This document shows positions 6,160 through 29,140 of a DNA stretch of 64,000 nucleotides, piece after piece. The stretch's first letter is position 1. Each line of letters opens with the position of its first letter. The notes under the pieces are model-generated. The model was not told the origin of the DNA. It worked only from the letters and a program-made list of their open reading frames with translations, and made no database searches. Origin of the DNA: Flavobacteriales bacterium (GTDB lineage: Bacteria; Bacteroidota; Bacteroidia; Flavobacteriales; Flavobacteriaceae). The translations under genes were made by a program, and so were the position numbers. The DNA lies in contig JBBSOK010000001.1 in assembly GCA_038259825.1 (NCBI GenBank), forward strand, positions 3,125 to 67,124, given 5' to 3'.

Positions 6160-6166
6160 AACGTTA

Positions 6167-8587: not shown

Positions 8588-8599
8588 TCTGATTTTGCT

Positions 8600-9442: not shown

Positions 9443-9444
9443 CC

Positions 9445-10014: not shown

Positions 10015-10018
10015 AATA

Positions 10019-14860: not shown

Positions 14861-17800
14861 TGTCTTCAGTCACTTCTTCAGAGAATATACCTAAAGGTGG
14901 TACAAAACTATCTACATTGGCCAAGTTGTTCTCATTCATAATATAAATGTATTGACCGTTTTCTGTTATTTCGCCTGCGGTTTCAATTGCCATTGTTATA
15001 ATTTGGTATTTTTCTTTTTTTGCTAGGTCGTGCAGCATATCATAATTGCTTCCCAAACCTTCTGCTTCGTCTATTGGCATAATTTTTAATCCTTCTTTGT
15101 CCTTTTCTTCAATTAGTGATAGCCTAGCCAAGCATAATAAAGCATTAGCCGCATAAGTTTGGCCATTGCTGCCAGAGTTGACCTCTTCGTTTTCGAGTTT
15201 TAACTCAAATACCAAATCAAAATAGGATTTTGGGTTCATTAAATCTTCAGGTTCAACTTTAGTACTACCACCAAGTTTTTGAAATGCTTTAATCATCATC
15301 TCATTAATATCAATTTCTTCGCGTAGCTCACTAAACAAACCTGTATAGTTGAGTTGGTTATGAAGCTGTTTCCTAAAGGTGGTAAGCCAATTATCTGGGT
15401 AGTGAATTGAATTTTTAGAAGTTAATGATGCTTTGTTTCCACCTGTTATACCTCTGTTTCCTTTTTTGAGATAGCTATCAATTTCATTAATCTTGGTAAG
15501 GTATCCTGTATAAACTTTATAAACATCATTAAATATGCTTCCCAATATTTCTACTTTTCTAGAACCGATTTCCTGGATATCTTGAGTCAGTTTGTTTAAC
15601 CTTTCTACAATATCGTTTTCAATTAAATCTTCATTGACTTTGATATTAGGAAATACAGTTGGCAGGAGATAATTTGCCAATTGTCCTATTGAAGCCGTTT
15701 CATCATACGGGAGGTCTTTAGTTATTATCTTTAAATATTCAATATAAGCGAGTTGTGCCTTATTTGCTTTAGCTTGAAAAGAATTGTTTCCACCATTATC
15801 AGGGTCTAAAGCTTCTTCAGTATTTTCGTCAAAATTAATTTTTGATTTAAAAAGCTGTTCGTTTGATTGTTTGGTTTCATCTATTTGCTCTTGTGCCAAA
15901 GTGAGTTGTTTTTCTTTTTGCTCTAAATCTCTATCTAGTTCTTTGATAGCGTCTAAAAGTTGATGTTTTAGATTTAAGAATGCAAGTCTAGATTTAATAG
16001 CAATATCCTTGGAGTACGTTTCGAAAAATAACTTTACATCAAAGTTCTTTTTTTTCAAGTTTTTTTCTTGTTCTGCCAGATGTTGTTCCTCTGAAGCTAT
16101 TCTTTCTTCTATTAATTGATTATTAATAGGAATATCAGCGTCAAAAAGTTCAGACTGTATTTTTTTAAGTCTATTCTGATGATTTTCTAGAAGATTTTTC
16201 CTGCTTGTAAATTCCTCATATTCCTTCTGCAGTGACTTGTATTTTTTAAGGATATTAGTTTTGTTCTTATGTGTCTGTAGATGAAGTTTGAAAAAATCTT
16301 CAGAAAGGCCTGCCAAACTGATGTCAATTTGGAAATTAAATAGCTCGTTTTTTCTTTTATAAAGTCCAATGTGCTTTTCAAGACTACTGTATTCAAAAAG
16401 TGTGTTTTTAAGGTGTTCTATATTTTCCTTTTTCGTAATAAGTTTGGTTAATTTTTCTTCAACCCCTTCCTTTAGTTTAGATAAAGATTTTATAATATCA
16501 TTTGGGTCTTGAACATTTAGAGCACGATGTTCTGAATAATTTATAAACTCATAGACACCGTCTAGATTGAGCCAAAACCCGTGTTTACTTTTATCCTTGA
16601 TATTTAAATCTATATTGCGAAAAAGCTGCTCTGGAAAAGGAACGTATCTTTTGGAATTTTCTTCCGAAGGTTTAAGCTTACCATATTTTTGAAAGTAGAT
16701 TAAAACACTTTCAAGTATATGCGATAGTGGAAATTCTATATTATCTACAGCCCAGTTAACCAAAGATTCAGGGTTGTTTAGATCTGAAAATCTTGATAAT
16801 GATTCCAGTTCTGCTATGTCCTTTTCTAATTCATTGATTTTTTTTGAATGTTCCTTGCTTTCTTCTTTGTAAGCAGTTAGCCAATTGGATGCCTTAAAAG
16901 CATCTAGAATATTATTAGTGGTAAGGTATTTTGTAAATTCTTGTAAAGCAGATTTATTATTATTCTCTTCCAGTTGAGAAGCAAACCATCTAGTTACTTT
17001 TTCAATATTATTATCGTGAGAAGAAAGCCATTTTTCTACTATTTCGATTTGAAGTTTGGACTGACCGATATCTACAAATTGTTTTGCAATATTATTTTTA
17101 TCTTCGTTTTTATCAGTTAGTTTGATAACTTTTTTCATAACGTCCAACAGCTCTTTCAAATCCTCTATTTTTAATTTCAGAATTTCATTTTCGAGAAATT
17201 GTAGCTCGTTCTTTTTTAAATTTAGTTCCTTGGCAATTTTGAGTTTCTTGGTAGTTGTTTTCTTTTTGAAAGTATTCCAGTAACTGAACTTTTTTACTAA
17301 ATATTCCGTGTAGATGGTCTTGTAGTTCTTTTGTTTTTCTAGTACAGTTTTCAGTAAAACTTGCTTGTCATTTATAAGTTCGATTTCTTGAGAATATCTT
17401 TTGTGTTCGTGGAAATCATTACTTATGTTTTCAACTTCTTCATTGTATTTTTCTATGATGGCATTTTTTTCATCATCGCCAAAAAGGAATTTTTTTAAAT
17501 TTTCAGATTCAGTCTTAAAACCTTTCCCTCTTGAAAAAGATCTTAAAATATTCGCATAAGTTTTGAGAGTTTCATCTTTAGTTAAATCTAATGACAAAAT
17601 AGCATTATCGTAAAGGATTTGATGGTAGTCCTTTCTTCTGAACGATTTTATCCTCGCAAACTCAACTCGTTCGCAAAGATTCTTAAGTGTATCAATCTTA
17701 TTGTCTATTATTAAATCCTTATTGAAAACTGGCTTATTCAAAGTAGTCAGACCATCCCAATCGTAGCCATTTTGAATAATGAACATTTCTGCCGCATTGC

Positions 17801-18125
17801 TTGTTCCTTCAATGTAAACCCCAATGACAAAATATTTTTTTGGGCTAACCTCAATGTTCAGAAAAATATAACCTCTAGATGATGAATGACCTTTTTTGGT
17901 AATTAGCATCCCTTTGACATCTCTTTGCTTATTGCCTTCGGTTGCAGATTTAAATTCATTTGAACCTACGAGAACCAACTGAATCATATCTGCAATCATA
18001 CTCTTTCCACTACCACTCTCGCCACTGAAGTCTGTTCTATATGGATGGAAAAGGTAATCAGCATTGAAATGCTGTTTGATACTAATCGTGGACAGACTAT
18101 ATATACGTGGATAATTATTCTGCAT
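14823..18125 (-). CDS. jetC: Wadjet JetC (SMC/MukB-like ATPase)
   Basis: The protein is 1100 aa with N-terminal Walker A GESGSGKSMIADM, a very long K/E-rich coiled-coil middle and C-terminal Walker B IMPIDEAEGLG. Confidence 0.8.
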   Translation of the reverse strand: MQNNYPRIYSLSTISIKQHFNADYLFHPYRTDFSGESGSGKSMIADMIQLVLVGSNEFKSATEGNKQRDVKGMLITKKGHSSSRGYIFLNIEVSPKKYFVIGVYIEGTSNAAEMFIIQNGYDWDGLTTLNKPVFNKDLIIDNKIDTLKNLCERVEFARIKSFRRKDYHQILYDNAILSLDLTKDETLKTYANILRSFSRGKGFKTESENLKKFLFGDDEKNAIIEKYNEEVENISNDFHEHKRYSQEIELINDKQVLLKTVLEKQKNYKTIYTEYLVKKFSYWNTFKKKTTTKKLKIAKELNLKKNELQFLENEILKLKIEDLKELLDVMKKVIKLTDKNEDKNNIAKQFVDIGQSKLQIEIVEKWLSSHDNNIEKVTRWFASQLEENNNKSALQEFTKYLTTNNILDAFKASNWLTAYKEESKEHSKKINELEKDIAELESLSRFSDLNNPESLVNWAVDNIEFPLSHILESVLIYFQKYGKLKPSEENSKRYVPFPEQLFRNIDLNIKDKSKHGFWLNLDGVYEFINYSEHRALNVQDPNDIIKSLSKLKEGVEEKLTKLITKKENIEHLKNTLFEYSSLEKHIGLYKRKNELFNFQIDISLAGLSEDFFKLHLQTHKNKTNILKKYKSLQKEYEEFTSRKNLLENHQNRLKKIQSELFDADIPINNQLIEERIASEEQHLAEQEKNLKKKNFDVKLFFETYSKDIAIKSRLAFLNLKHQLLDAIKELDRDLEQKEKQLTLAQEQIDETKQSNEQLFKSKINFDENTEEALDPDNGGNNSFQAKANKAQLAYIEYLKIITKDLPYDETASIGQLANYLLPTVFPNIKVNEDLIENDIVERLNKLTQDIQEIGSRKVEILGSIFNDVYKVYTGYLTKINEIDSYLKKGNRGITGGNKASLTSKNSIHYPDNWLTTFRKQLHNQLNYTGLFSELREEIDINEMMIKAFQKLGGSTKVEPEDLMNPKSYFDLVFELKLENEEVNSGSNGQTYAANALLCLARLSLIEEKDKEGLKIMPIDEAEGLGSNYDMLHDLAKKEKYQIITMAIETAGEITENGQYIYIMNENNLANVDSFVPPLGIFSEEVTEDIDEYIQSLSDNE

Positions 18126-18795
18126 CTTTTACTTCCTCTATCAAATCGTCAATCGTTTCGATTTGGGGTTGATAGTTAATTCGCAAGCGTTCAAAAGATG
18201 GCATTATTTTGAATTTGTTCTTCTCATCTTCTCTTTCCCATTTTAACCAGCCCAAATCCCCAAATTTTTCAAAAGCCTTGGAAATTACTGTTTCAAATCT
18301 TTGGTCACTCAAATCTGTACTCTTATCGGAAGAATTGTCGTTTATCAGTTTCCTTAATGCATTTTTCTGTTCTTCATATTCCTCATATAAGAGGGTAGTG
18401 AATTCAGATACACTATCCAGTTCAATGTTTCCGTCGAGCTTATACATTTTTAGGTATAACATTCCTATAATGATATATTCGCTTTTTAGATAATCCCGAT
18501 TGTCAGATGGTACATTGCCCTTACCGTCTTCATTAAAGTTTAAATAGTAGTAGTTGTTAAAGTCAGTACCTTCTTTTAAGAGATTTAAATTGAAAAAATC
18601 TTTATAATAGTTTTTAAGTGATTCATAGTTTTCAGACTCGTTTAAAAATCGATATAGGTTTACATTTAAGGGATATTCCCTTTGAATATGAATACCATTT
18701 CTAAGTGTGTAATCAAGTTTTGCAAAAATGCTTTTTGCCTTCTTATTGTTTAAAAAACTATAGGTATCTATTTTTTCTGTATTGTCATCTGCCAT
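18115..18795 (-). CDS. jetB: Wadjet JetB (MukE-like, DUF4194-like)
   Basis: It is an acidic 226-aa protein that overlaps both jetA and jetC. Its size and position fit the jetA-B-C-D order. Confidence 0.65.
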   Translation of the reverse strand: MADDNTEKIDTYSFLNNKKAKSIFAKLDYTLRNGIHIQREYPLNVNLYRFLNESENYESLKNYYKDFFNLNLLKEGTDFNNYYYLNFNEDGKGNVPSDNRDYLKSEYIIIGMLYLKMYKLDGNIELDSVSEFTTLLYEEYEEQKNALRKLINDNSSDKSTDLSDQRFETVISKAFEKFGDLGWLKWEREDEKNKFKIMPSFERLRINYQPQIETIDDLIEEVKDAE

Positions 18796-20087
18796 AAGGA
18801 AATTCCTTTTTTTGCTGTATCGTACACAGGTTCTTTTTTAACACCTACATTGTATTGATTCCTGTATGTAGTGTTCTTTCTTATAATATTGTGGGCTGTT
18901 TTAACAGCGATTGTAAGTTGGTCTTCTTTTAGAATTTTAAAGAAAAGAGGTGTAAAATCAAGAAAACCTTGTAGCTCTAATTCTTTTAATGCTAAATTGG
19001 TCCAATAACGAATTCTCTCTTTGTCCTGCTTCCATTTTAAGGTCTTTTCTAATAGTTCTTTTCTTTTAGAAACATCGACCTTTCTTATTGTAACTTCAAT
19101 GGGCAGTTTAGGACTAATTTCCCTTATTGGGATAACATTGAATTTAAGATTGTGAGTTGTGGACTTTACGACTAACCCTAAAAGGTTATTAGGAAGCTGT
19201 ATTCTTTTTGAACTTCCTTCCCTAGCTACTACTGATTGTTGTAATAAATAGTCAATGAACTTGTTAGTTTTTCTATCAAAATTCTTTTTATTGAAATCAT
19301 AAATGAATTCTCTAATTCGTGGCTTTATTTTTTCAATTCTTTTACTTACTTGTTCTAACTGGCTTCTAGAATTATCGTGAAAATTTTGAACCCTATAAAT
19401 ATTTGAGATATAGTTTTGTCCTTTATTCTCTTCGAGAAGACCAATTAAAAGGTCATCTATATCATAGGAAATCTGAAATGCATTTCTAAGTTCAGATGCT
19501 TGTTCTTTAATTACTTCAAGACGTATTTCAATACCTTTAAGAACATCGAGAATGCCTTGGTTTTCAGAATTTATTTCTGTTTTAAAATCCTTTACAGAAT
19601 CGTTAACCTGTTGGTCTAATATTTCTATTTGTGAAGTAAGTTCGGGAAGCCTAACCTCAAAATGGTCTTCAATCCATTCGTTGAAGTCTTTATTTTGCTC
19701 AATGTTTTCAGTGAGGCTTTTGTGCAATTCCGCGAAGAACCTTTTAATTTTCGCTGGATTGTACTTTTCGATTAAACGCTTTTCAATATTCTGGCAAAGT
19801 TCTAATCCGTATTTTTTGAACTGATAAGTTTTCTTAGAAACATTTCGCCATAGAAAAGACTCTTGAAACCTAAGAATAATAGCATTGTTTCTGTTGAATT
19901 CTGTCCTTGAACTTTCATTGCCCTGGTCCTTGAAGACCTTGTTTATAGTTGATATAATAATCTCTTCTGTGAAGTCTTTATCCTTGTATTTTGAATATAG
20001 AGATAGAAGAATTAATCCATCGTTTTTCTCAGGGATTAGCTTCTCATATTGGTCTTTTGCTTCTCTGTATAGATTAAAACTGTCCAT
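18768..20087 (-). CDS. jetA: Wadjet JetA (kleisin/MukF-like, DUF3375-like)
   Basis: It is a 439-aa helical protein and the first gene of the operon. It is assigned mainly from operon architecture. Confidence 0.65.
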   Translation of the reverse strand: MDSFNLYREAKDQYEKLIPEKNDGLILLSLYSKYKDKDFTEEIIISTINKVFKDQGNESSRTEFNRNNAIILRFQESFLWRNVSKKTYQFKKYGLELCQNIEKRLIEKYNPAKIKRFFAELHKSLTENIEQNKDFNEWIEDHFEVRLPELTSQIEILDQQVNDSVKDFKTEINSENQGILDVLKGIEIRLEVIKEQASELRNAFQISYDIDDLLIGLLEENKGQNYISNIYRVQNFHDNSRSQLEQVSKRIEKIKPRIREFIYDFNKKNFDRKTNKFIDYLLQQSVVAREGSSKRIQLPNNLLGLVVKSTTHNLKFNVIPIREISPKLPIEVTIRKVDVSKRKELLEKTLKWKQDKERIRYWTNLALKELELQGFLDFTPLFFKILKEDQLTIAVKTAHNIIRKNTTYRNQYNVGVKKEPVYDTAKKGISLWQMTIQKK

Positions 20088-20288: not shown

Positions 20289-22049
20289 ATGACATATGCC
20301 TTTATAGATGAAATACTTGTTGGTTACAATATCGATTTAGAAATATTACGACCAAACACTACACTCTACCGTGCTTCACTGTTGCAACATAAAGGTACAT
20401 TTCATTGCGGTGATACTTTTTTTGGAAACCAAGCAGACGAAACGGGAAAGTTTGTGTCATTCTTTGAAGCTACTAAGGTTAACCATTCTAACCTTGTTGT
20501 AACGCCCGAATATTCCTGCCCTTGGAATGCAATAATACATTTTCTTGAAAATACAGAAACAGCACCAGATACTGGTAGCCTATGGGTTATTGGTTGTGAG
20601 TCTATATCTGTTGAGAGAATACGAGAAATCCAAGACCAGTATTCAGGTGAAAATAATATTGAGATACTTTTTAATGATGATATTGGCGTAGGTAATGTAG
20701 GTGTCCTTCTTGACCCTTGTTGCTATATGTTTAAAGCCCAGAATCCCTATGGTGTTGAGAAGCTTATAGTATTAGTTCAATTCAAAACGCAACATATGGG
20801 CGTTTGGGAGAGCGATTTAGAGCAACAAAAGCTAATTCCAGGTGAACATATATATATTCTTCGCAACGACCCTGATTCAATCAATTTGCTTACGATTATT
20901 TGTTCAGATGCCTTGGTCTTCAATGGTGCAGCAATTTCTGCCCAGCATCCAGGAAGATGGGAAAATTTACCATACATTGTTCTCAGTATTCAAATGAATC
21001 CCAAACCAGCTCACCAAGGTTTTAGAAATTTTAGAGATGGTATTTTACGATTAAATAACAAAGACATAATATCCTTAAATTGGAGCTCTGAAAGCCAAAC
21101 TTCTTTTTCGGCCACTTTTTTTAATAAGTTTTCAAAATCTAATATAACAATTAGTACAGACCATATTACAAATGAGTCTCGGGATGAACAAAATCTAATT
21201 AAAAGTAATCACGATAAAGGACTTTATTATGCGTTTATTAAACCAAAACGGCATACATTTTACTTTAGTGCAGCTAATGAGTTTGCAGTACTCAGAATGA
21301 GAAAACCCTATGCGGGTGCTATCAATCCTGCTTTAGATAGACGTAGAGGGCCTACTATGGATTCCGTTTATCAATATAATTTAGAGCAAAACAATTTCGT
21401 GGAAATAGAAATTATAGACGATGGTCTTCAAAATTTCTTAATGTCTATTGGTATTAGTAGTAATAGCCTAACTGGTGGAGGATTGGACATACTAGACAAA
21501 GAACGATTGATAAACCTGTCAGTTGGTGAGATTGAAATAAAAAATGGGAATGTACAGTGGCAAATCGTTAACAAGCTAAAAAGTTTTTTAATGGAAGATA
21601 CTGAAATCATCAGAAGATACACAGTTACTTTTGATGAGGACGGCAATGAATTCAGAGCAACTCGACTCACTAAATTTGATGAGTTAAATTTAAACATACT
21701 CAACAGACCTGAGTTATTTCCAGATGTTATTGCCACTTTCAAGGATAATTGTGGTGAGGTAATGTTCCTGAATGATGGAAGCTTCAACTACCAATACAAT
21801 TTGGTAAATAACGATGATGAGTATGCAACCGTGGCTCATATAGGAAATAAGGGTAAGGGCGCTGCACAAGCTTTATTGAAAAAGTTAACCGAGCTTTTCC
21901 CGAGAGAGTATAGACAAAACAATAGGATAGTGGTATGGTATAAGCCTAACGTAAATGATTATGACTGTGTAGCCACACCAGTACCTAAAATTTCTAATAC
22001 AGAACCTAACGACTTTACATCGATTACCAAGACTGATGAATCAAGATAA
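20289..22049 (+). CDS. Uncharacterised protein with an N-terminal nitrilase-superfamily (CN-hydrolase)-like domain and an unknown C-terminal domain
   Basis: A Glu-Lys-Cys signature appears in canonical order and context: LVVTPEY (E74), VQFKTQHMGVWE (K166), LIPGE, then LLTIICSDALVF (C205). The spacings are 92 and 39 aa. Residues from about 300 to 586 have no motif I recognise. Confidence 0.55.
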   Translation: MTYAFIDEILVGYNIDLEILRPNTTLYRASLLQHKGTFHCGDTFFGNQADETGKFVSFFEATKVNHSNLVVTPEYSCPWNAIIHFLENTETAPDTGSLWVIGCESISVERIREIQDQYSGENNIEILFNDDIGVGNVGVLLDPCCYMFKAQNPYGVEKLIVLVQFKTQHMGVWESDLEQQKLIPGEHIYILRNDPDSINLLTIICSDALVFNGAAISAQHPGRWENLPYIVLSIQMNPKPAHQGFRNFRDGILRLNNKDIISLNWSSESQTSFSATFFNKFSKSNITISTDHITNESRDEQNLIKSNHDKGLYYAFIKPKRHTFYFSAANEFAVLRMRKPYAGAINPALDRRRGPTMDSVYQYNLEQNNFVEIEIIDDGLQNFLMSIGISSNSLTGGGLDILDKERLINLSVGEIEIKNGNVQWQIVNKLKSFLMEDTEIIRRYTVTFDEDGNEFRATRLTKFDELNLNILNRPELFPDVIATFKDNCGEVMFLNDGSFNYQYNLVNNDDEYATVAHIGNKGKGAAQALLKKLTELFPREYRQNNRIVVWYKPNVNDYDCVATPVPKISNTEPNDFTSITKTDESR

Positions 22050-25000
22050 TTTAGAACAAATATTGCCTGATGGTTATTTAGTCAAGAACTTTGACAACGT
22101 GGAGCAAATTGCTAAGATTGAGCATAATTTTGGAAGTGCCTTAATATCAAAATATTTTATAGATTTAAAATCTGAATATAAAGATATAAATATTAAAGAG
22201 TACCAAGAAAAGTACATATCCAAAGATTATTTTGACGCTGACGGAAATGTACAATGGAACTATTATATAATTTTTGTTAGAGAAAATTTTGATACAGATA
22301 ACAAGCGAGCAATTGAGAAAGACGAAAGTTATGCAAGAAAATTTGTTTTTACGTCAGAAGAACTCAAAAATTACCTGCGTTACCAGCAATCGGATATTGA
22401 AAAAGATGAGGATGTTGTGTCCAGATGGAAACAACAATTAATGGCTGTTGACCTGCAAGAAGTATTCAGTGATGAGCCATACAATCAGGCTGTACCAAGA
22501 TTTGTCGAAGGAAAATCTAAAAAGCCAGATGAGCTTAACCCAATTGATAATAGACCAAACGACGATGAAGATTTTTTATTACAAAAGGTCAGACATCTTA
22601 AGTTAAATGATTCATATAGAAAATTTCCTGAAAAGCGAGATTTTACATTGGGAAAGGTGAATCTTATAACAGGGCCAAATGGGGTTGGTAAGACCTCATT
22701 AATGGAAGGCCTTGAACTTGTAATTACAGGAAACAATTCAAGAAATAATTCTGCAAATAATCATAATGATTGTATTTTGGCTGAATATGTTTCTGACGGC
22801 AAACCTGTTTCTGATGCCTATACCAATTCACTAGGGAAATATAAGGCAAGAGACTACTTCTGGTACAACAATCCTCTAAGTAGATTCAATGAGGCATATA
22901 GAAGTTTTAATCGATATAATTTCTACAATTCAGATAGCGCATATCAACTATCTAACAATCCAAATAGCGAAGAGCTTACCAAATATCTTTCGGCCATAGC
23001 TCTCGGCACAGAATTCGGTTCAATCCGAAAGAGGCTCATTGGTTTTCAAGAAAGATTAAATAAAGAACAAAACAGAATTTCTGATATTATATCTCGGGAA
23101 GAAGAAACTATAGTCAATTCTGAAGTGCAGATTGAAAAGCTAAAAAAGATTTCGAATCCAGAAGTTTTGTTTAAGCAGTTTATTGAGGATGCAAAGTCAA
23201 TAAATTGGCAAAAGCCACTACCTGAAAACCCAGAAGACAAAACTGAACTTTTTGAAAAGGATTATAAGACATTGCTTTCTTATTTAAACGCAATAGTACA
23301 TTCTAAAGTGGTTAGCCATTCTAATGCATTGGACAGACTTAATATACTTGAGGAACTTAAGAAAGACCTAGACCAAAAAGAAAAAGAAAAAAGCACCTTT
23401 AGAAAAGAACATAAAATATTAGAGTTAAGATTAAAAAAACTTAAATCGAACAAAGAGTTAATTAATTGGGCTCTAAAATATCTCGAAAGTCCAAATAATT
23501 TTAGAATTGAGTCTATTAAAGATGAAATAAATAAACTGGAACAAGATATCACGCGATTCGATTCTTTCGATAGTAATATTAAAAAGCTCAATCTTGCGGA
23601 AATTAGCAAGAGCCAAAAGAACATCATTCAACTGACTCGTGATAATGAACAGACTAGAGAGGAAAAAGAGAATAAAAAAGTAGAACTGCAAAGTCAACTT
23701 AAAACATTAAAGTCAACCGTAGATAAGCTCAAATCGGTTATTGCAGAGATAAGATATTATGGAAAAGAATTTGTAGAGATTAAAGGTGACGAGACAGACG
23801 CATGTCCTCTATGCGAAACGCCACAAACGAAAAGCCAGTTACTTCAAAAAGTTGAAAAAATTTATGATGAAGAAGGTGAGGCAAAAAAAATTGAAGGCTA
23901 TAATAAATCCATTGATAAGTTAGAAAAGGAAATTTTGGGAATAGCGAACGAATTAAAAGTCTTAGGTAGTTACCAGAATAATATTAAAAACATTCTATCT
24001 CAAGAGGATGTAAGTAAAACGCTTAATAACGTAAGCACCATTCTCCAAAAGAAAAGAGAGGAAATTGATACTCAACGCAAACAGTTAGAGGAATTGGAAA
24101 CTCTTGAAATCAATTTAAGGTCTAAAGGTTTCTCAGAAGATGATTTACAAGATTTGCAAAAACGAATGATCACAAATTTTAAAGAACTTCATTTTACTAA
24201 AGATGGCAAAGAGGATTTTGAGACCTTTAATAAAAAACTCATAGTCCAAGTCGATGAAACTCATGAAGCAATAGAGAACAGCAAGAAAAAGATAGATGAA
24301 TTAGATTCTAAAATTAAGGAATTGGTTGATAGTAAATATAAAGTTGATGATTATGATACAAAAATTGCTTTTGATATAAAAGAGCTTCAATCACTTCTTG
24401 AATTATTCGATAAAATCAAAAAGATTGTGTCTTTGCAATCCAAAGACTTTATCGTGGAAATTCGTCATTCTGTTGAAAGAGTGTATGAAAAGTTCAAAAG
24501 TTTTAAATCACTTTTGGTGAAATTCGAAGAGCTTAATCTGGCTAACAGTCTTATTATAAAAGCCGATGAAAAGATAAAGAACCAAACCGAAAAACTCAGT
24601 CGAGTTAAATCTGGACTGAAAGTCATCGATGAGATTCTTACGAAGGATAGCCAAGAAAACATACTCGACCTTTTCTTTAGAAAGAATGAAGAAGAAATCG
24701 GTGAAATATTTACTAGAATTCATTCGCCCAAAGAATTCACGGGTTTGTCTATAGATTCTGGCAAAATAAATCTAGAGAAAGGTCTTTTGGGTACAGCCAC
24801 ACCTATAAACGAAATCAGTACTGGTCAAAGAAGTGCACTCGCTTTATCCATATTTTTAGCTTTAAACAGAAAACTTAAAAAGGGGCCAAATATTATAATT
24901 TTTGATGACCCTGTCACTTATACTGACGATTTAAATATTCTTTCATTTTTGGACTATTTACGAACGCTCATTATCAATGAATCAAGACAGCTCGTTTTTG

Positions 25001-25098
25001 CTACGGCAAGTAAGAAAATCGCTGGACTTTTCGAAAAGAAATTCAATTTTTTAGATGAAGATTTCAAAACTTTTGAGCTTTCAAGGACAGATTTCTAA
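22036..25098 (+). CDS. Rad50/SMC-like ABC ATPase with a coiled coil, a CxxC zinc hook and an extra N-terminal domain
   Basis: Walker A is ITGPNGVGKTSLMEGLELVITG (K219). A K/E-rich coiled coil of about 700 aa carries CPLC at residues 590-593, near its midpoint. The signature-like motif ISTGQRSALALS and Walker B IIIFDDP follow. The start overlaps the upstream gene by 14 nt. Confidence 0.8.
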   Translation: MNQDNLEQILPDGYLVKNFDNVEQIAKIEHNFGSALISKYFIDLKSEYKDINIKEYQEKYISKDYFDADGNVQWNYYIIFVRENFDTDNKRAIEKDESYARKFVFTSEELKNYLRYQQSDIEKDEDVVSRWKQQLMAVDLQEVFSDEPYNQAVPRFVEGKSKKPDELNPIDNRPNDDEDFLLQKVRHLKLNDSYRKFPEKRDFTLGKVNLITGPNGVGKTSLMEGLELVITGNNSRNNSANNHNDCILAEYVSDGKPVSDAYTNSLGKYKARDYFWYNNPLSRFNEAYRSFNRYNFYNSDSAYQLSNNPNSEELTKYLSAIALGTEFGSIRKRLIGFQERLNKEQNRISDIISREEETIVNSEVQIEKLKKISNPEVLFKQFIEDAKSINWQKPLPENPEDKTELFEKDYKTLLSYLNAIVHSKVVSHSNALDRLNILEELKKDLDQKEKEKSTFRKEHKILELRLKKLKSNKELINWALKYLESPNNFRIESIKDEINKLEQDITRFDSFDSNIKKLNLAEISKSQKNIIQLTRDNEQTREEKENKKVELQSQLKTLKSTVDKLKSVIAEIRYYGKEFVEIKGDETDACPLCETPQTKSQLLQKVEKIYDEEGEAKKIEGYNKSIDKLEKEILGIANELKVLGSYQNNIKNILSQEDVSKTLNNVSTILQKKREEIDTQRKQLEELETLEINLRSKGFSEDDLQDLQKRMITNFKELHFTKDGKEDFETFNKKLIVQVDETHEAIENSKKKIDELDSKIKELVDSKYKVDDYDTKIAFDIKELQSLLELFDKIKKIVSLQSKDFIVEIRHSVERVYEKFKSFKSLLVKFEELNLANSLIIKADEKIKNQTEKLSRVKSGLKVIDEILTKDSQENILDLFFRKNEEEIGEIFTRIHSPKEFTGLSIDSGKINLEKGLLGTATPINEISTGQRSALALSIFLALNRKLKKGPNIIIFDDPVTYTDDLNILSFLDYLRTLIINESRQLVFATASKKIAGLFEKKFNFLDEDFKTFELSRTDF

Positions 25099-25761
25099 TC
25101 ACTTCCGTTTATCCCCAACCCTCTTATCAAACGCAATTAAATTAAACAGTTCACGCATTCTGCTACGTACACGGTTTCCGTAGCGTTCTTCCAGTTCTTC
25201 AGCGTTGAGATTAGTGGTGGCGTGGGTTTTAATTTTCTTTTTGGTTTGGAGATATAATTCGTAACGAGACAAGAGTACTTCGCCCATTACGTTCAAATCT
25301 TTGCCATAAAATCTTCCAGCAGGTTCAATGCCTAAATCGTCAAAGCAATAGAATTTGGTATTGCCAAATTCCTCGATCGTCTTAAATCCAAGATGGTTAA
25401 AACTAAACGCTACATTCCGGCAGGGAATCATTTCGTATGGTCGTTGCATTGGCACGATATGTCGCATTAGTTTCATCAAAGTAGTCTTTCCACAGCCAAC
25501 AGGTCCAGAAAGAAGAATGCCCTTGTCGGGGTCGATATCATCTTTCAGACAATTTTCTTTGTCTTTGATGAAATAGTGACATAGCTTACGAATGATAACT
25601 GTGTCGTCATCATAGATTCTAAATTGTTTTCCAAAGAGCAACTTCCCCTTTGCATCCAAATAAATTAGGATTTTGTCAAAATCGTATAGAACGCTTTTGC
25701 CATCAAATTTTCCGAGCGAATATTCCACGCAACCTTCGGTAATTTTAGAGGGGTTGTCCAT
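25099..25761 (-). CDS. DnaC/IstB-like AAA+ ATPase (putative helicase loader of the ICE)
   Basis: Walker A is LLSGPVGCGKTTLMKL, Walker B is CFDDLGIE, with sensor THATTNL and YGNRVRSRMRE. I chose the internal Met (MDNPSK) at 25761. The longer ORF to 25989 overlaps the upstream gene extensively. Confidence 0.65.
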   Translation of the reverse strand: MDNPSKITEGCVEYSLGKFDGKSVLYDFDKILIYLDAKGKLLFGKQFRIYDDDTVIIRKLCHYFIKDKENCLKDDIDPDKGILLSGPVGCGKTTLMKLMRHIVPMQRPYEMIPCRNVAFSFNHLGFKTIEEFGNTKFYCFDDLGIEPAGRFYGKDLNVMGEVLLSRYELYLQTKKKIKTHATTNLNAEELEERYGNRVRSRMRELFNLIAFDKRVGDKRK

Positions 25762-26497
25762 AGTCTTTGTTTTTAGTGGTTCGCAAGTTGTCCTTGATTT
25801 GGGACGGTTGTTTTTTGTTTGGTTTGTTTTCCTCGGAATATAATTCTGTTCTGTCCATCCAGTTCGTTGCCAAGGCACGCCAATCTCTAATTTCATTTCC
25901 ATCGCTTGTTTGCCAGTTCCGAGTTTCATAATGCTCGAAGAATTTTTTTCCTTCATCAGCATTAAAACCTTTTTCAATAAAAAAATCAATAACGGCCTGC
26001 CAGCCTTTTGGTTGTTTTATATTGTTTACTTGTTTGGTATTGTTTATAGTAGATACCAATGCTTGTCCACTGATGGGATGGTGCGAGTCCAAAGCTTGTC
26101 CATTTTTGGGATGGTGTTGGTACACTACTGGTTCACGTATGGGATGGTACTGTTCCGCAAGCTGTTCTAATATGGGATTGTACCGTCCCGTAACTGGTTC
26201 ATCACTTGTCCCAATAATGGTCATCTTAATTTTACTGCCTTTATATGGATTGTTGGATGGGAAATAGGATAGGTAAAGCCAAGAATCTAAATCCCTAACA
26301 CATCTGTGGTACGTGGATTTTGAGCCAATTTTAGAACAGCGCATTAAATCCCTTCGATTTACGTAAAATTCGTCTGCAAAGCGACTACTGTTCCATTCTT
26401 GAAATAGCGCCATATACAAACTGATATGTGTAGGATTAAGGCGATCATCAAAGTAGAATTTTTCAAAAGCCGCATTAAGTAGCTTTATATAGTTCAT
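25745..26497 (-). CDS. Winged-helix-like DNA-binding protein, possible replication organiser partner of the ATPase
   Basis: The N-terminal half (YFDDRLNPTHISLYMALF...STYHRCVRDL) looks winged-helix-like. The central part has four 11-aa repeats and the C-terminal segment is W-rich. It overlaps the downstream ATPase gene by 17 nt. Confidence 0.35.
   Translation of the reverse strand: MNYIKLLNAAFEKFYFDDRLNPTHISLYMALFQEWNSSRFADEFYVNRRDLMRCSKIGSKSTYHRCVRDLDSWLYLSYFPSNNPYKGSKIKMTIIGTSDEPVTGRYNPILEQLAEQYHPIREPVVYQHHPKNGQALDSHHPISGQALVSTINNTKQVNNIKQPKGWQAVIDFFIEKGFNADEGKKFFEHYETRNWQTSDGNEIRDWRALATNWMDRTELYSEENKPNKKQPSQIKDNLRTTKNKDYGQPL
26061..26192. repeat. Four tandem 33-bp repeats with a GGGATGGT core inside the winged-helix gene
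   Basis: Core copies lie at 26075-26082, 26108-26115, 26141-26148 and, as GGGATTGT, 26174-26181. The period is exactly 33 bp. The first two units also share GCTTGTCCA. Confidence 0.8.
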
Positions 26498-26500
26498 CTT

Positions 26501-26785
26501 TTAAGAATTTAGACCGTGCTGCACACGGTTGGCATCCATCACTTTTTGAATTTCCTCAGTATCGTAGTAGATGATGCCACCAACTTTGTTATAGGGCAAA
26601 GTACCATTGATACGAAGGTTCTGAAGTGTGCCTGGACTCACTTGAAGTAAATCCATAACCTCGGAAGATTTAAGGTATTTTTTGAGCTTTCCCTTGGATT
26701 GATTGGTAAGCAGTTTCTTGATGTCATCGAGTAATTCCATTTTGAAATCTCGAAGATCGTCTGTAGTAATTATTGATGTTGGCAT
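26501..26785 (-). CDS. Excisionase-family helix-turn-helix DNA-binding protein
   Basis: It is 94 aa. The peptide LKSSEVMDLLQVSPGTLQNLRINGTLPYNKVGGIIYY is a typical MerR-superfamily Xis/AlpA-type HTH. Confidence 0.7.
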   Translation of the reverse strand: MPTSIITTDDLRDFKMELLDDIKKLLTNQSKGKLKKYLKSSEVMDLLQVSPGTLQNLRINGTLPYNKVGGIIYYDTEEIQKVMDANRVQHGLNS

Positions 26786-26908
26786 AATAGAACGGTTTTA
26801 AAGAAAAGGACTATCAACGATTTTAAATTTTTAATTGATAGCCCTTAACCTGATTTGACTTTCGTTCTACAAATTTGGTTAGGTTTATTGGATTTTATTC
26901 CCCAGTAC

Positions 26909-26923
26909 GACCGTACTACGGTC
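26909..26923. promoter_or_regulatory. 15-bp palindrome GACCGTA-C-TACGGTC (putative operator)
   Basis: It is a perfect 7-1-7 inverted repeat in the intergenic region upstream of the xis-like gene. A near-identical copy lies 138 bp away. Confidence 0.4.
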
Positions 26924-27046
26924 AAAATTTAACATTTTGAAATTTGGGAAGTTTTGGTACATTTTGAGCTAGTTTTTGTAAAATTATAACCTCAAAACAT
27001 ATTAAATTTTATGGAAAATAGATGCAGAATTCAGTTACCTCAGTTC

Positions 27047-27061
27047 AACCGTAGTACGGTC
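27047..27061. promoter_or_regulatory. 15-bp palindrome AACCGTA-G-TACGGTC (putative operator, second copy)
   Basis: This inverted repeat has the same half-sites as 26909-26923. The 1-nt spacer is too short for an RNA hairpin loop. Confidence 0.4.
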
Positions 27062-27107
27062 TTTTTTTAAGAGATCTAAAAAAGAAGTGTTGGTTGAAAC
27101 TAACGAT

Positions 27108-27944
27108 TTACTCTTCGCTTTTATCCATTTCTATAAGTAAGGATGTGGAAAGTTGGTCCAGAAAAAGGGTTCTGCTATTCTTCCTTTTTTTGATTTCTTG
27201 AAAGGTTTTATAGATGTCTTTTGGTGTAAAGTCAAATATCTGTTGCAGTTTTTTAGAAACTTGCATTATGCTTTGGCTATCCTGCTTTCCTAAACCTTTT
27301 GCACAGAGCGCATAAAGTAGTTCCACGTAATCTGTATTAGAAAATGGCCAATGTATTTTTTCTATGGGTTTAATGCTTCTCGATTTACCATTTATACCTT
27401 TTCGAATTTGGAATTTTTTCTCATTTAAATAAACTATTAACGAATCATAAGCCTTGTATTTGCCAAGAAGCATATCCCGAGGTGTGCAAAATTCAGGGTC
27501 TTGGAAATAGAATTTTGAGGTTGTAATGTGAAATGTATCAAGGTAATCCCGTGTGTAGTATTCTTTGTCAAAATGGGTAGCCCCAGAATTGATATATCGT
27601 CCAAAATCTATATTGATAAGAAAAAACCTATTTATCTTTTTGACTTTCTTTCTAATGAATTTTAATTGGTCATCCTTATTTCCTTTTGGAAACTGAACTT
27701 CAAAAGAATGGATTTCTGAAAAGTAAATTAAGTTTATAAGCGGAATTTGTTTGATTTCCTTAAAGAATTTTATTTCTTCCTTAATAGTTTGGAATTCTTT
27801 ATAGAGTATTTCTTTTTTATAGGTTGTCAATAAATTACGACAAGACCTAATAGAACGGTTAGCCCTTTCTAAAATATTATCATATTGATTTTTTATATCA
27901 TCAAGGTCCTGAAGCAATATTTTCGATAGTATTTGAGAATTCAT
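27108..27944 (-). CDS. rteC: RteC-family regulatory protein
   Basis: The C-terminal region (IHWPFSNTDYVELLYALCAKGL...IYKTFQEIKKRKNSRTLFLDQL) matches the conserved RteC pattern of Bacteroidota conjugative transposons. Confidence 0.7.
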   Translation of the reverse strand: MNSQILSKILLQDLDDIKNQYDNILERANRSIRSCRNLLTTYKKEILYKEFQTIKEEIKFFKEIKQIPLINLIYFSEIHSFEVQFPKGNKDDQLKFIRKKVKKINRFFLINIDFGRYINSGATHFDKEYYTRDYLDTFHITTSKFYFQDPEFCTPRDMLLGKYKAYDSLIVYLNEKKFQIRKGINGKSRSIKPIEKIHWPFSNTDYVELLYALCAKGLGKQDSQSIMQVSKKLQQIFDFTPKDIYKTFQEIKKRKNSRTLFLDQLSTSLLIEMDKSEE

Positions 27945-28214
27945 AAGTAGGTAGATTTAATTTTGAGACCATAGTTATTTGATTTAATTGATTAGGTTGA
28001 TTTAATTTTTTATTAAAATGAAAACTTTAAAAATAGCCCCCGTAATTCATTAATTTTGTGGCTAATTAATAGATTTTGTGGAACTTGTGGAAGATAACCT
28101 TAAACAAGAATTATTTAAGAAAAAATTTCCGTATTTAATTACGGATTTCACCGTATTTTTCTACGGACTTTTTATCAGATACAGCAAGCACAGCTATTTC
28201 AGATTGATTTCGAA

Positions 28215-29132
28215 TTATTCCACTTTCTTACGAAACCGTTTTAAGAACTCACGTCTATTTTTGACACTTGTCTTTTTAAAAATATTTGAAGCGTGTTTTG
28301 ATACGGTGCTTTCTGCAATGAATAAATCTTTAGAAATATTTCTATAGCTTAAATCACTTAAAATGGAAAGAGCAACCTCAATTTCTCTTCTTGTCAAATC
28401 TTCATAAAAAAACTTACGTTCAATCGCTTCGATCTTTTGCTTTTTTTTGAGAGCGAACACTTCGTGCATTCGGTTATTATTTTCTATAAAGTATAAATAC
28501 CTATCTACTTCAATAGTGGTTATGGCATAGAAGGCCAAGTTCATCACTGTAAAGGTCAACCATTGGTAATCTCCAATAACTGTACAAATAGGTAACAATG
28601 CTATACTTCCCACACTTATAATAGATAATCTATTACGCTTTAAAATAAAGGCATTCGAATTACTTGGATTCGAAATTCGTCTGTAAAATATGAATAGAAA
28701 AATAATGGCAGCTACTGAAATTGGTATGGTAAAAAGAATTCTAGCAGAGGCCAAAGAACCTGTGACAAGATAGGGAACTAAAAATAGAGTGATAAAACTA
28801 ACGGTGGTAAATATGGCAAGATTCCGAATTGAAGAATTAAATTTCAGAACGACAATATCATACTCCTTATAGAGATAATATACAATGTAAATGCACAATG
28901 TGATTGCCACACTATATGTTATGATGTATTGAAGTATAAATGGTCCAGGGAAATTATCAGTAGGAAGAAACCCGCCAGTAGCGTTATAGACAACAAATAA
29001 TAAACCAAGAATTAGAAACCGCTTAAAGTTACTGCCCGGTTTCTTTCCAGAAAAGTAGAGTGTAAACAATACTATAACCGTATCTACTAATAGATAGAAG
29101 AACGTCGTCCAATGTATTGAAGTTCCAAACAT
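28215..29132 (-). CDS. Membrane-anchored LuxR-family transcriptional regulator
   Basis: About 6-7 TM helices are followed by a C-terminal LuxR HTH (LTRREIEVALSILSDLSYRNISKDLFIAESTVSKHASNIFKK). Confidence 0.7.
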   Translation of the reverse strand: MFGTSIHWTTFFYLLVDTVIVLFTLYFSGKKPGSNFKRFLILGLLFVVYNATGGFLPTDNFPGPFILQYIITYSVAITLCIYIVYYLYKEYDIVVLKFNSSIRNLAIFTTVSFITLFLVPYLVTGSLASARILFTIPISVAAIIFLFIFYRRISNPSNSNAFILKRNRLSIISVGSIALLPICTVIGDYQWLTFTVMNLAFYAITTIEVDRYLYFIENNNRMHEVFALKKKQKIEAIERKFFYEDLTRREIEVALSILSDLSYRNISKDLFIAESTVSKHASNIFKKTSVKNRREFLKRFRKKVE

Positions 29133-29140
29133 TTATATTC

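What the first reader, a model, noticed from the sequence alone, without database searches (positions are those of the whole stretch)
22036..25098. SMC/Rad50-like ATPase with a mid-coil CPLC zinc hook and an extra 185-aa N-terminal domain
Walker A (K219) lies about 185 aa from the N-terminus, so an additional domain (residues 1-185, with IAKIEHNFGSAL and YYIIFVRENF) precedes the ATPase head. The CPLC motif (23803-23814, residues 590-593) lies near the midpoint between Walker A and the STGQRS signature / IIIFDDP Walker B. That is where a Rad50-type hook would sit at the coiled-coil apex. Hook-mediated dimerisation suggests DNA-end or DNA-topology sensing.
Basis: partly seen in the sequence, partly recalled or inferred. 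Interest (0 to 1): 0.7.

Follow-up and report, generated by a model that had tools for sequence, protein, structure and literature searches.

The report
Lamassu defence ATPase with fused LmuC
This gene encodes the Rad50-like DNA sensor of a Lamassu-type anti-phage/anti-plasmid system in which the usually separate small LmuC subunit is fused to the sensor's N-terminus, and the gene before it encodes a nitrilase-type hydrolase as the probable toxic effector; it is a new variant of a known system, not a new kind of machine.

Summary
ORF 22036-25098 (+) encodes 1020 aa. Walker A is at residues 213-220, a single CPLC at 590-593, the STGQRS signature at 928-933 and Walker B IIIFDDP at 953-959.

C590, P591 and C593 are three of only four invariant columns in the roughly 570-residue coiled coil across 34 homologues, down to 22% identity. 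The AlphaFold2 model reverses its helices at that loop.

The extra N-terminal region is a real domain, not part of the head. It matches Pfam MComp1 (ABC-3C "Middle Component 1", the MC1 type of LmuC). The window protein alone scores just below Pfam's cut-off.

The remaining 838 aa show three sequence features published for "long" Lamassu LmuB: Walker B hhhhDD, one CxxC, and about 800 aa. PADLOC LmuB models hit at E=2.8e-30.

The overlapping upstream gene (20289-22049, 586 aa) has a nitrilase-superfamily fold with an invariant Glu-Lys-Glu-Cys set, plus an unmatched C-terminal domain. It precedes the fused ATPase in every locus that holds readable upstream sequence, across at least eight phyla.

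Best reading: a two-gene long-type Lamassu with an LmuC-LmuB fusion and a C-N hydrolase effector, carried on a Bacteroidota conjugative element next to a Wadjet-like cluster. Defence activity, zinc binding and the effector's substrate are untested.

The parts
20289..22049 (+). Partner gene, 586 aa, LmuA-like effector subunit. Its last 14 nt overlap the start of the ATPase gene.
   Evidence: ORF. Overlap ACTGATGAATCAAGATAA read directly. 156 homologues of about 580 aa, none with a Pfam domain. Found immediately upstream of the fused ATPase in every locus with readable upstream sequence.
20289..21173 (+). Partner residues ~1-295: nitrilase-superfamily (C-N hydrolase) fold. Putative catalytic residues are E74 (20508-20510), K166 (20784-20786), E178 (20820-20822) and C205 (20901-20903). 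The domain boundary is approximate.
   Evidence: AlphaFold2 pLDDT 90.2, pTM 0.89. 39 PDB nitrilase/amidase chains at Foldseek E 7e-6 to 1.6e-4, probability 1.00, 270-300 aligned columns. E74, K166, E178 and C205 are invariant in 48 homologues. Each follows a beta-strand as in nitrilases: strands 69-71, 157-165 and 199-204.
21174..21989 (+). Partner residues ~296-567: mixed alpha/beta C-terminal domain with no detectable relatives. Presumed docking domain, the counterpart of the LmuA CTD. Residues 568-586 are disordered.
   Evidence: Confidently modelled, but no PDB, Pfam or PADLOC match. Only 1 of 48 homologues touches a PADLOC LmuA model, at E=1e-3.
22036..25098 (+). LmuC(MC1)-LmuB fusion gene, 1020 aa. 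This is the finding.
   Evidence: PADLOC LmuB PDLC03865 E=2.8e-30 and PDLC03859 E=2.4e-28. 53 homologues; the 51 complete ones are 1012-1051 aa.
22036..22515 (+). Residues 1-160: MC1-type LmuC domain (Pfam MComp1). The conserved core is QWNYY ... IEKD..YARKFVF, followed by three short helices.
   Evidence: Pfam PF20289 matches residues 45-113 at E=2.4e-5, 24.5 bits (cut-off 27.3). 21 of 28 family members match, best E=1.7e-8. W74, N75, Y77, R101, K102 and L135 are invariant. The core motif aligns with an independent MComp1-positive protein, P0313.
22516..22581 (+). Residues 161-182: low-conservation linker (SKKPDELNPIDNRPNDDEDFLL) joining LmuC to the ATPase head.
   Evidence: Mean column conservation 0.29 for residues 161-180. 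Variable length and gaps in the alignment. Mostly without regular secondary structure in the model.
22582..23007 (+). Residues 183-324: N-terminal half of the ABC ATPase head. Walker A GPNGVGKT is at 22672-22695.
23008..23793 (+). Residues 325-586: ascending coiled-coil arm.
   Evidence: Helices 325-368, 375-388, 404-421, 428-483, 486-516 and 530-586.
23794..23829 (+). Residues 587-598 (TDACPLCETPQT): hook loop. The CPLC is at 23803-23814.
   Evidence: Loop between long helices. C590, P591 and C593 invariant. A single CP[LVI]C in all 23 genome-derived family members. 2 of 34 members match Pfam Rad50_zn_hook, best E=7e-4. Aligns with the CPVC of P0313.
23830..24720 (+). Residues 599-895: descending coiled-coil arm.
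   Evidence: Helices 599-607 through 873-895. Breaks mirror those of the ascending arm.
24721..25095 (+). Residues 896-1020: C-terminal half of the head.
- Signature STGQRS at 24817-24834.
- Walker B IIIFDDP at 24892-24912, with D958 in place of the usual Glu.
- Ala991 where the H-loop histidine is expected (25006-25008).

Best explanation
Genes 20289-22049 and 22036-25098 form a two-gene, long-type Lamassu (ABC-3C) defence module.

The 1020-aa protein is an LmuC-LmuB fusion. It consists of an MC1-type LmuC domain (1-160), a flexible linker, and an 838-aa Rad50/SbcC-like ABC ATPase. The antiparallel coiled coil of the ATPase folds back at a CPLC zinc hook.

Proposed mechanism, by analogy with studied Lamassu systems and SbcCD:
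1. Two fusion proteins dimerise through the hook and heads. Fusion would give each sensor subunit its own LmuC (2:2), as in the symmetric Mre11(2)Rad50(2)/SbcC(2)D(2) complexes. Short Lamassu is instead built A1:B2:C1.
2. In the resting state this scaffold holds the 586-aa partner, through its C-terminal domain, as an inactive monomer.
3. Binding of foreign DNA ends or replication intermediates to the heads and LmuC, together with ATP binding and slow hydrolysis, releases the partner. Slow hydrolysis is expected from Walker B DD and Ala in place of the H-loop His.
4. The released nitrilase-fold domain (E74-K166-E178-C205) oligomerises and becomes active, as nitrilase-superfamily enzymes generally must.
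5. It hydrolyses an essential C-N bond, substrate unknown, arresting the infected or plasmid-bearing cell.

Shown here: domain architecture, motif conservation, predicted folds, strict gene pairing, and location in a defence island on a mobile element.

Inferred: zinc binding, stoichiometry, DNA-end sensing, sequestration and release, effector chemistry, and the defence phenotype.
For: LmuB identity
- PADLOC LmuB models hit at 2.8e-30 and 2.4e-28, far better than JetC, DndD or PtuA.
- Foldseek matches Rad50 best and also solved Lamassu LmuB chains 9hqx, 9hqu and 9uxh.

Published features of long LmuB (PMC12663957, read), all present
- Walker A Gx4GK[ST].
- Walker B hhhhDD (here IIIFDD; invariant D957, near-invariant D958).
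- Exactly one CxxC.
- About 800 aa (here 838 aa after the linker).

LmuC identity of the N-domain
- Pfam MComp1 hits in 21 of 28 members, best 1.7e-8.
- MC1 is the LmuC type reported to accompany large LmuB (bioRxiv 10.1101/2025.03.14.643221).
- Domain order LmuC then LmuB equals the canonical gene order lmuA-lmuC-lmuB.

Effector
- Nitrilase fold with an invariant catalytic set.

Coupling of the two genes
- 14-nt overlap.
- The pair is conserved in Bacteroidota, Verrucomicrobiota, Beta- and Gammaproteobacteria, Desulfomicrobium, Nitrospirota, Planctomycetota, Clostridium and Leptospira.

Defence and mobile context
- In the window the pair lies between a Wadjet-like jetABCD cluster and ICE genes, with a type IIG restriction-modification gene nearby.
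- Elsewhere it sits next to restriction-modification, SIR2 and AAA_21+HNH genes and on a conjugative IncP plasmid.
Against: - No member of this fused family has been tested for defence.
- The window protein's own MComp1 score (24.5 bits) is below Pfam's cut-off (27.3).
- No PADLOC LmuC model matches the N-domain, even at E<=1.
- I could not model the N-domain on its own, so its reported resemblance to the SbcD/Mre11 C-terminus is untested here.
- The partner is not recognised by PADLOC LmuA models or by Pfam models at E<=1 (which would include the ABC-3C CTD families, if my recollection that Pfam holds them is right). Its assignment as LmuA rests on position, strict co-occurrence and having an enzyme domain plus a second domain.
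- No nitrilase-type effector is described in the Lamassu papers I could read.
- The AlphaFold2 model is a monomer. Hook dimerisation and the N-domain's docking site were not modelled.
Confidence: 0.72

Rival explanations
1. It is a housekeeping DNA-repair complex of the SbcCD/Mre11-Rad50 type, whose nuclease partner has been replaced or lies elsewhere. It would process DNA ends or hairpins for repair rather than defend against invaders.
For: Best structural match is Rad50. Weak sequence matches to Rad50 and arcadin-4/ASRP profiles. CP[LVI]C hook as in Rad50/SbcC. RefSeq attaches a 'double-strand break repair' GO term to the Polaromonas homologue.
Against: - No Mre11/SbcD phosphoesterase gene is adjacent in any locus; the conserved neighbour has a nitrilase fold.
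- Walker B is DD rather than DE, and the H-loop His is Ala.
- NCBIfam Rad50 scores 31.6 bits against a cut-off of 700.
- The pair is patchily distributed and sits on an ICE, on a conjugative plasmid and in defence islands. That is the pattern of accessory defence genes.
Confidence: 0.07
2. The pair is an accessory module of the neighbouring Wadjet-like jetABCD cluster. The six genes would form one composite SMC-based system, not an autonomous Lamassu-type unit.
For: jetABCD homologues lie directly upstream of the pair in Tenacibaculum (L004) and Christiangramia (L016), on the same strand with about 70 nt between jetD and the partner gene. In the window they lie divergently adjacent.
Against: The association is confined to these Flavobacteriaceae loci. 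In some 20 other genomes of other phyla the pair occurs without any detectable jet gene within 10 kb. In the window the two clusters are on opposite strands.
Confidence: 0.06
3. It is an SMC-like two-gene system unrelated in function to Lamassu. The N-terminal domain would be an independent sensor or nuclease-like module, and the nitrilase-fold protein a metabolic or regulatory enzyme rather than a toxic effector. One example would be a toxin-antitoxin-like or plasmid-maintenance function of the mobile element.
For: The partner is unrecognised by any LmuA, CTD or Pfam model. The MComp1 match of the window protein is sub-threshold. The function of MC1 domains is itself not established experimentally.
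Against: LmuB-specific HMMs match strongly. The long-LmuB sequence features are all present. The family-wide MComp1 signal (21 of 28) and the LmuC-LmuB order are hard to explain otherwise.
Confidence: 0.12

Closest known systems
Long-type Lamassu / ABC-3C systems with MC1-type LmuC (Krishnan et al. 2020 as relayed by later papers; Haudiquet et al. PNAS 2025, PMC12663957; Gruber-lab preprint bioRxiv 10.1101/2025.03.14.643221)
   Same: - Rad50/SbcC-like LmuB of about 800 aa.
- One CxxC hook.
- Walker B hhhhDD.
- MC1 module placed immediately before LmuB.
- An upstream gene encoding an N-terminal enzyme domain plus a C-terminal domain.
- Defence-island and mobile-element location.
   Different: - LmuC is covalently fused to LmuB, giving two genes rather than three. 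This implies one LmuC per LmuB.
- The effector has a nitrilase (C-N hydrolase) fold. The long-type effectors listed in PMC12663957 are Cap4, Mrr, protease/hydrolase, Sir2 and FMO.
- The partner's C-terminal domain matches no catalogued model.
- The H-loop His is replaced by Ala.
Short Lamassu with solved structures (Vibrio cholerae DdmABC, Salmonella enterica LmuACB, Bacillus cellulasensis LmuAB; PDB 9hqu, 9hqx, 9uxh)
   Same: SMC-like LmuB dimer as DNA-end sensor. Effector probably held inactive and released to oligomerise. The zinc hook is required for defence in the Salmonella system. LmuB chains are among the Foldseek hits.
   Different: - Short LmuB is about 600-650 aa, with zero, one or two CxxC motifs and Walker B D[Q/S/T/E].
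- Its LmuC belongs to other types (MC2-MC8).
- The complex is asymmetric, A1B2C1.
- The studied effectors are Cap4 nucleases.
- Type I lacks LmuC altogether, rather than fusing it.
Rad50-Mre11 / SbcCD DNA-repair complex
   Same: Head, long antiparallel coil and CPxC hook architecture. Best structural match. The literature proposes that MC1 LmuC derives from the SbcD C-terminal Rad50-binding region. On that view the fusion recreates an SbcD-CTD-plus-SbcC unit in one chain.
   Different: No phosphoesterase nuclease. Walker B DD and no H-loop His. Coil about 200 residues shorter than SbcC, by the published comparison. Accessory distribution on mobile elements.
Nitrilase-superfamily amidases (for example Nesterenkonia amidase, formamidase AmiF, Geobacillus aliphatic amidase) and nitrilase domains of defence reverse transcriptases (RT-nitrilase systems)
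   Same: Alpha-beta-beta-alpha fold and an invariant Glu-Lys-Glu-Cys set in the partner. Nitrilase domains already serve as presumed effectors in RT-nitrilase defence systems (named; otherwise my own knowledge).
   Different: No sequence-level match to Pfam CN_hydrolase or to PDB sequences. Carries an extra 270-aa domain. Coupled to an SMC-like ATPase rather than a reverse transcriptase.

Membership tests
Lamassu LmuB, long type | SMC/Rad50-like ABC ATPase head split by a coiled coil; Walker A Gx4GK[S/T] | tested here: met
   GPNGVGKT at 213-220. Pfam AAA_23, SMC_N and AAA_29. PADLOC LmuB E=2.8e-30. Model and Foldseek hits.
Lamassu LmuB, long type | Walker B consensus hhhhDD (PMC12663957) | tested here: met
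   IIIFDD. D957 is invariant and D958 at least 90% conserved. hhhhDDP is found in 21 of 23 genome-derived members by a strict pattern search.
Lamassu LmuB, long type | Exactly one CxxC zinc-hook motif in the coiled coil | tested here: met
   A single CPLC at 590-593, invariant. A single CP[LVI]C in 23 of 23 members. Zinc binding itself was not testable.
Lamassu LmuB, long type | Length about 800 aa (short type about 600 aa) | tested here: met
   Residues 183-1020 make 838 aa once the fused N-domain and linker are removed.
Lamassu / ABC-3C system | LmuC (middle component) encoded between lmuA and lmuB; MC1 type for long systems | tested here: met
   Present as a fused domain, not a separate gene. 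Pfam MComp1 matches 21 of 28 members, best 1.7e-8. The window protein scores 24.5 bits against a cut-off of 27.3. No PADLOC LmuC hit.
Lamassu / ABC-3C system | LmuA: N-terminal effector domain plus a catalogued C-terminal domain (CTD1-CTD5 for long systems) | tested here: inconclusive
   The upstream partner has an enzyme fold followed by a second domain. No Pfam or PADLOC LmuA/CTD model matches: 0 of 48 in Pfam and 1 of 48 in PADLOC at E=1e-3. That Pfam includes the ABC-3C CTD families is my recollection, not checked here.
Lamassu / ABC-3C system | Protects against phages or plasmids, dependent on the ATPase and the effector | not testable with these tools
   Only context is available: defence-island and mobile-element location.
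Rad50 / SbcC | Adjacent Mre11/SbcD phosphoesterase partner and canonical Walker B hhhhDE | tested here: not met
   The partner has a nitrilase fold and no Pfam phosphoesterase hit. Walker B is DD. NCBIfam Rad50 scores 31.6 bits against a cut-off of 700.
Hinge-type SMC (SMC, MukB, JetC) | Globular hinge domain at the coiled-coil apex and a kleisin partner | tested here: not met
   The apex is a 12-residue loop with CPLC. JetC models match only the Walker A stretch. No kleisin-like neighbour.
Nitrilase (C-N hydrolase) superfamily (partner protein) | Alpha-beta-beta-alpha sandwich fold with a Glu-Lys-Cys catalytic triad (plus a second Glu) | tested here: met
   39 PDB nitrilase-superfamily hits at probability 1.00. 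E74, K166, E178 and C205 are invariant in 48 sequences and sit at strand ends. The Pfam CN_hydrolase HMM does not match. Membership is therefore at fold and active-site level only.

The most novel reading that the evidence does not exclude
This is a distinct, phylogenetically widespread two-gene Lamassu lineage that the PADLOC models do not call as a complete system. About 700 clusters at 50% identity match the N-domain profile, and nearly all of the best 150 are full-length fusions.

LmuC is permanently fused to LmuB. The resulting sensor would be symmetric and SbcCD-like, (LmuC-LmuB)2. That makes it a living intermediate between SbcCD and the asymmetric short Lamassu.

Its output is a C-N hydrolase rather than a nuclease, protease or NADase. 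This would be the first SMC-controlled metabolite- or amide-directed effector.
Probability: 0.4. Interest if true: 0.55.

Novelty: new variant of a known kind. Interest (0 to 1): 0.4.

Why it matters
Lamassu is one of the commonest SMC-based immune systems, but all solved structures and mechanisms come from the short type.

A natural LmuC-LmuB fusion fixes the LmuC:LmuB ratio at 1:1 and pins the C-terminus of LmuC near the N-terminus of the head. That is a direct test of the proposal that long Lamassu still works with SbcCD-like geometry. It also gives a convenient two-protein system for structural work.

The nitrilase-fold partner would add a new output chemistry to SMC-controlled immunity. 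Because nitrilase enzymes are generally active only as oligomers, it fits the 'release and oligomerise' activation model and offers an independent test of it.

Practically, the pair is annotated only as 'AAA family ATPase' plus 'hypothetical protein'. PADLOC misses the partner.

Tried and rejected
- Sequence searches of the N-domain profile and the partner profile against PDB sequences found nothing useful.
- Pfam and PADLOC scans of 48 partner homologues found no family.
- Foldseek of the partner against viral structures gave no hit at E<=0.001.
- A profile search meant to reach unfused relatives only returned the same fused family, then a sharp drop to unrelated ABC ATPases.
- One apparently stand-alone 175-aa MC1 protein (P0181) turned out to be a frameshifted copy of the fused gene on a low-coverage contig.
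- The 210-aa gene upstream of the unfused 794-aa ATPase P0314 is not related to the N-domain.
- Two loci from long-read MAGs (L028, L030) looked unfused, but the gene there is simply fragmented into several ORFs.
- The sigma-70 promoter scan gave no more sites than shuffled sequence and is not suited to Bacteroidota.
- A crude heptad score was uninformative.
- The Krishnan et al. 2020 paper that defines ABC-3C, MC1 and CTD1-12 is not in the held library. I therefore could not check whether MC1-ABC fusions or nitrilase effectors are already listed there.
- I recall from memory only that DefenseFinder has a 'Lamassu-Amidase' subtype. I could not verify it or whether it corresponds to this partner.
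- I considered a PD-(D/E)xK nuclease reading of the conserved IEKD...RKF motif in the N-domain and dropped it in favour of the MComp1 match.
Full report
**1. The observation**

The ORF at 22036-25098 (+) is real. It starts with ATG and encodes 1020 aa.
- Walker A GPNGVGKT at 213-220
- CPLC at 590-593 (nt 23803-23814)
- signature STGQRS at 928-933
- Walker B IIIFDDP at 953-959

The protein has only three cysteines. Placing three Cys at random gives a CxxC with P=0.006, and one starting within residues 540-640 with P=0.0006.

Homologues give the stronger argument. A search of the 5.8-billion-protein collection found 53 relatives; the 51 complete ones are 1012-1051 aa. In an alignment of 34 of them (22-77% identity), C590, P591 and C593 are invariant. 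Between G324 and F892, which spans the whole coiled coil (mean column conservation about 0.3), the only other invariant column is L602. In 23 further family members taken from genomes of other phyla there is always exactly one CxxC. It always reads CP[L/V/I]C and always lies about 375 residues after Walker A.

**2. The hook**

An AlphaFold2 model built on the alignment has mean pLDDT 83.2. It has a long helix at 530-586, a loop at 587-598 (TDACPLCETPQT), then helices 599-607 and 613-651. Interruptions in the helices are mirrored about the cysteines: 67 vs 64, 105.5 vs 105.5, about 166 vs 177 and about 194-218 vs 208 residues away. This is what an antiparallel coil folding back at the CPLC would give.

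Two family members match Pfam Rad50_zn_hook, best E=7e-4. Foldseek against the PDB gives Rad50 of the Chaetomium MRN complex as best hit (E=8e-13). Smc5/6, MukB and the solved Lamassu LmuB chains 9hqx, 9hqu and 9uxh follow. I could not test zinc binding or dimerisation.

**3. The N-terminal domain**

Generic head profiles start to align only at residues 195-208, on their positions 8-22. The first head strand in the model is 182-190. Residues 1-182 are therefore extra.

They form a compact alpha/beta domain (strands 14-20, 25-32, 35-43, 76-81 and 101-105, with helices), then three short helices (127-157), then a poorly conserved linker at 161-182. The domain is conserved throughout the family; W74, N75, Y77, R101, K102 and L135 are invariant.

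Scanned alone, it matches one Pfam family: PF20289 MComp1, 'ABC-three component system Middle Component 1'. The window protein scores E=2.4e-5 and 24.5 bits, just under the 27.3-bit cut-off. 21 of 28 family members match, best E=1.7e-8. The conserved core also aligns with the N-terminus of P0313, an unrelated 1123-aa ABC ATPase that passes the MComp1 cut-off at 39.7 bits. 'Middle component' is the older name for LmuC of Lamassu.

**4. What the system is**

PADLOC's LmuB models are by far the best defence-system matches (E=2.8e-30 and 2.4e-28).

The Lamassu literature divides the family into short and long types. Long LmuB is about 800 aa, has Walker B hhhhDD and always has one CxxC. It goes with MC1-type LmuC, which resembles the Rad50-binding C-terminus of SbcD/Mre11 (PMC12663957; bioRxiv 10.1101/2025.03.14.643221).

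The window protein meets each LmuB criterion: IIIFDD, a single CPLC, and 838 aa after the linker. It carries MC1 where the lmuC gene would lie in the canonical lmuA-lmuC-lmuB order. I therefore read it as an LmuC(MC1)-LmuB fusion.

The fused architecture is not an annotation artefact:
- A profile of the N-domain finds 699 clusters at 50% identity (566 at E<=1e-10). Of the best 150, most are 1000-1060 aa; the shorter ones I inspected were a truncated or frameshifted copy (P0181) and a 240-aa MC1-like+TPR protein (P0303).
- The words 'fused' and 'fusion' do not occur in the main text of PMC12663957.
- No held paper describes such a fusion.
- The founding ABC-3C paper is not held, so I cannot exclude that it mentions one.

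**5. The partner**

The 586-aa ORF at 20289-22049 overlaps the ATPase gene by 14 nt. It has 156 homologues of about 580 aa and no Pfam, PADLOC, NCBIfam or PDB-sequence match.

The alignment showed invariant TPEY (E74), K166, E178 and C205. That suggested a nitrilase-type Glu-Lys-Glu-Cys site. The AlphaFold2 model (pLDDT 90.2, pTM 0.89) confirmed it:
- 39 nitrilase-superfamily amidases, formamidases and Nit proteins match at Foldseek probability 1.00 (E 7e-6 to 1.6e-4) over 270-300 columns.
- The four residues sit at the ends of beta-strands, as in that fold.

Residues ~296-567 form a second, confidently modelled alpha/beta domain with no detectable relative. By position it corresponds to the LmuA C-terminal docking domain, but it matches none of the catalogued CTD models.

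The partner lies immediately upstream of the fused ATPase in every locus with readable upstream sequence. These include Aequorivita, Tenacibaculum, Christiangramia, Flavobacterium, Sphingobacteriia, Chitinophagaceae, Verrucomicrobia, Thauera, Variovorax, Undibacterium, Xanthomonas, Rhodanobacter, Pseudomonas, Desulfomicrobium, Nitrospira, Pirellulaceae, Clostridium, Leptospira and the IncP plasmid pPNAP01 of Polaromonas.

**6. Context**

The window is part of a Bacteroidota integrative conjugative element:
- TraG at 10019-12421
- TraM at 7054-7983
- DUF4138 at 6167-7057
- RteC at 27108-27944
- integrase at 29798-31129

The element's cargo includes a type IIG restriction-modification enzyme (1931-5032) and a Wadjet-like jetABCD cluster on the minus strand (13892-20087), as well as the pair described here.

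In other genomes the pair sits next to restriction-modification, SIR2 and AAA_21+HNH genes. This is the usual setting of defence systems.

**7. Mechanism (inferred)**

By analogy with the solved short Lamassu complexes and with SbcCD:
1. The fusion protein dimerises through the hook and heads.
2. It holds the partner inactive.
3. On sensing DNA ends or replication intermediates it releases the partner, which oligomerises and becomes active.

Two features refine this:
- Fusion would enforce one LmuC per LmuB. The resting complex should then be symmetric, like Mre11(2)Rad50(2), unlike the A1B2C1 short complexes.
- Walker B is DD and the H-loop histidine is an invariant alanine (A991, aligned to the His of P0313). 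That predicts ATP binding with slow hydrolysis.

Nitrilase-superfamily enzymes are generally active only as dimers or higher oligomers (established knowledge, not tested here). This suits a release-and-oligomerise switch. The substrate is unknown.

**8. Rivals**

- A repair-type SbcCD is unlikely. There is no nuclease partner, the catalytic motifs deviate, and the genes have an accessory, mobile distribution.
- A composite system with the neighbouring Wadjet is unlikely. The adjacency is confined to three Flavobacteriaceae loci out of about 25.
- A functionally unrelated SMC-like pair cannot be excluded, because nothing here is experimental.

**9. Verdict**

The thing is a long-type Lamassu-like module with two departures from the described systems: the LmuC-LmuB fusion and a nitrilase-fold effector with an uncatalogued docking domain.

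That makes it a new variant of a known kind, of moderate interest (0.4). The interest would fall if the ABC-3C catalogue or DefenseFinder already lists it. It would rise if the symmetric architecture or a new effector chemistry is confirmed.

Noticed in passing
window 13892-20087 (- strand); L004 1-6169; L016 2041-8172: A Wadjet-like four-gene cluster lies divergently next to the pair: 439-aa JetA-like, 226-aa MksE/JetB, 1100-aa MukB-like JetC, and 322-aa weakly JetD3-like. Homologous jetABCD genes sit directly upstream on the same strand in Tenacibaculum and Christiangramia, but not in about 20 other genomes. Two SMC-based systems therefore travel together in some Flavobacteriaceae.
   Followed up: partly
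window 24904-24909 and 25003-25008 (residues D957-D958, T990-A991): Besides Walker B DD, the position of the ABC H-loop histidine is an invariant alanine in this family. The other MC1-ABC fusion, P0313, keeps TTHD. This suggests a particularly slow ATPase.
   Followed up: partly
L010 2246-8372 (protein P0313): A second, unrelated lineage of MC1-ABC fusion: 1123 aa, Pfam MComp1 39.7 bits at residues 28-102, a CPVC hook and Walker B IIVDDP. It is preceded by a metallo-beta-lactamase-fold gene and a 475-aa gene of unknown family, next to an Eco47II-type restriction-modification pair. LmuC-LmuB fusion may have arisen more than once.
   Followed up: partly
L005 745-4852; L006 1-1799: An ATPase-like gene is followed by a partner-like 607-aa gene and then a 240-aa protein with an MC1-like N-terminus joined to TPR_12 repeats, with no LmuB after it. 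This arrangement is unexplained.
   Followed up: no
window 1-12421 and 25099-31129: Backbone of a Bacteroidota conjugative element:
- TraG, TraM and DUF4138/TraN-like
- a cell-wall amidase at 13163-13801
- RteC
- a LuxR-type regulator
- an HTH_17 excisionase-like gene at 26501-26785
- a tyrosine integrase at 29798-31129

Other cargo: a type IIG restriction-modification enzyme (1931-5032) and a PIN_12 protein (532-1593). Housekeeping genes (Na+/H+ exchanger, Era-like GTPase) start after about 31.9 kb.
   Followed up: partly
window 25099-25989 (- strand): A 296-aa DnaC/IstB-like AAA ATPase ORF ends at the base immediately after the stop codon of the fused gene (convergent, no spacer). It overlaps a 250-aa ORF at 25745-26497 with no family match.
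   Followed up: no
L048 (NC_008757.1 299906-304725): A family member (559-aa 'hypothetical protein' plus 1041-aa 'AAA family ATPase') is carried on the conjugative IncP plasmid pPNAP01 of Polaromonas naphthalenivorans CJ2. RefSeq gives it a double-strand-break-repair GO term.
   Followed up: partly
partner model: Below significance, E. coli SbcD and phage SbcD-like exonucleases recur among the Foldseek hits of the partner (E 0.15-1.1, probability <=0.23). This probably reflects the shared four-layer alpha-beta-beta-alpha sandwich and not homology, but I did not resolve it.
   Followed up: no
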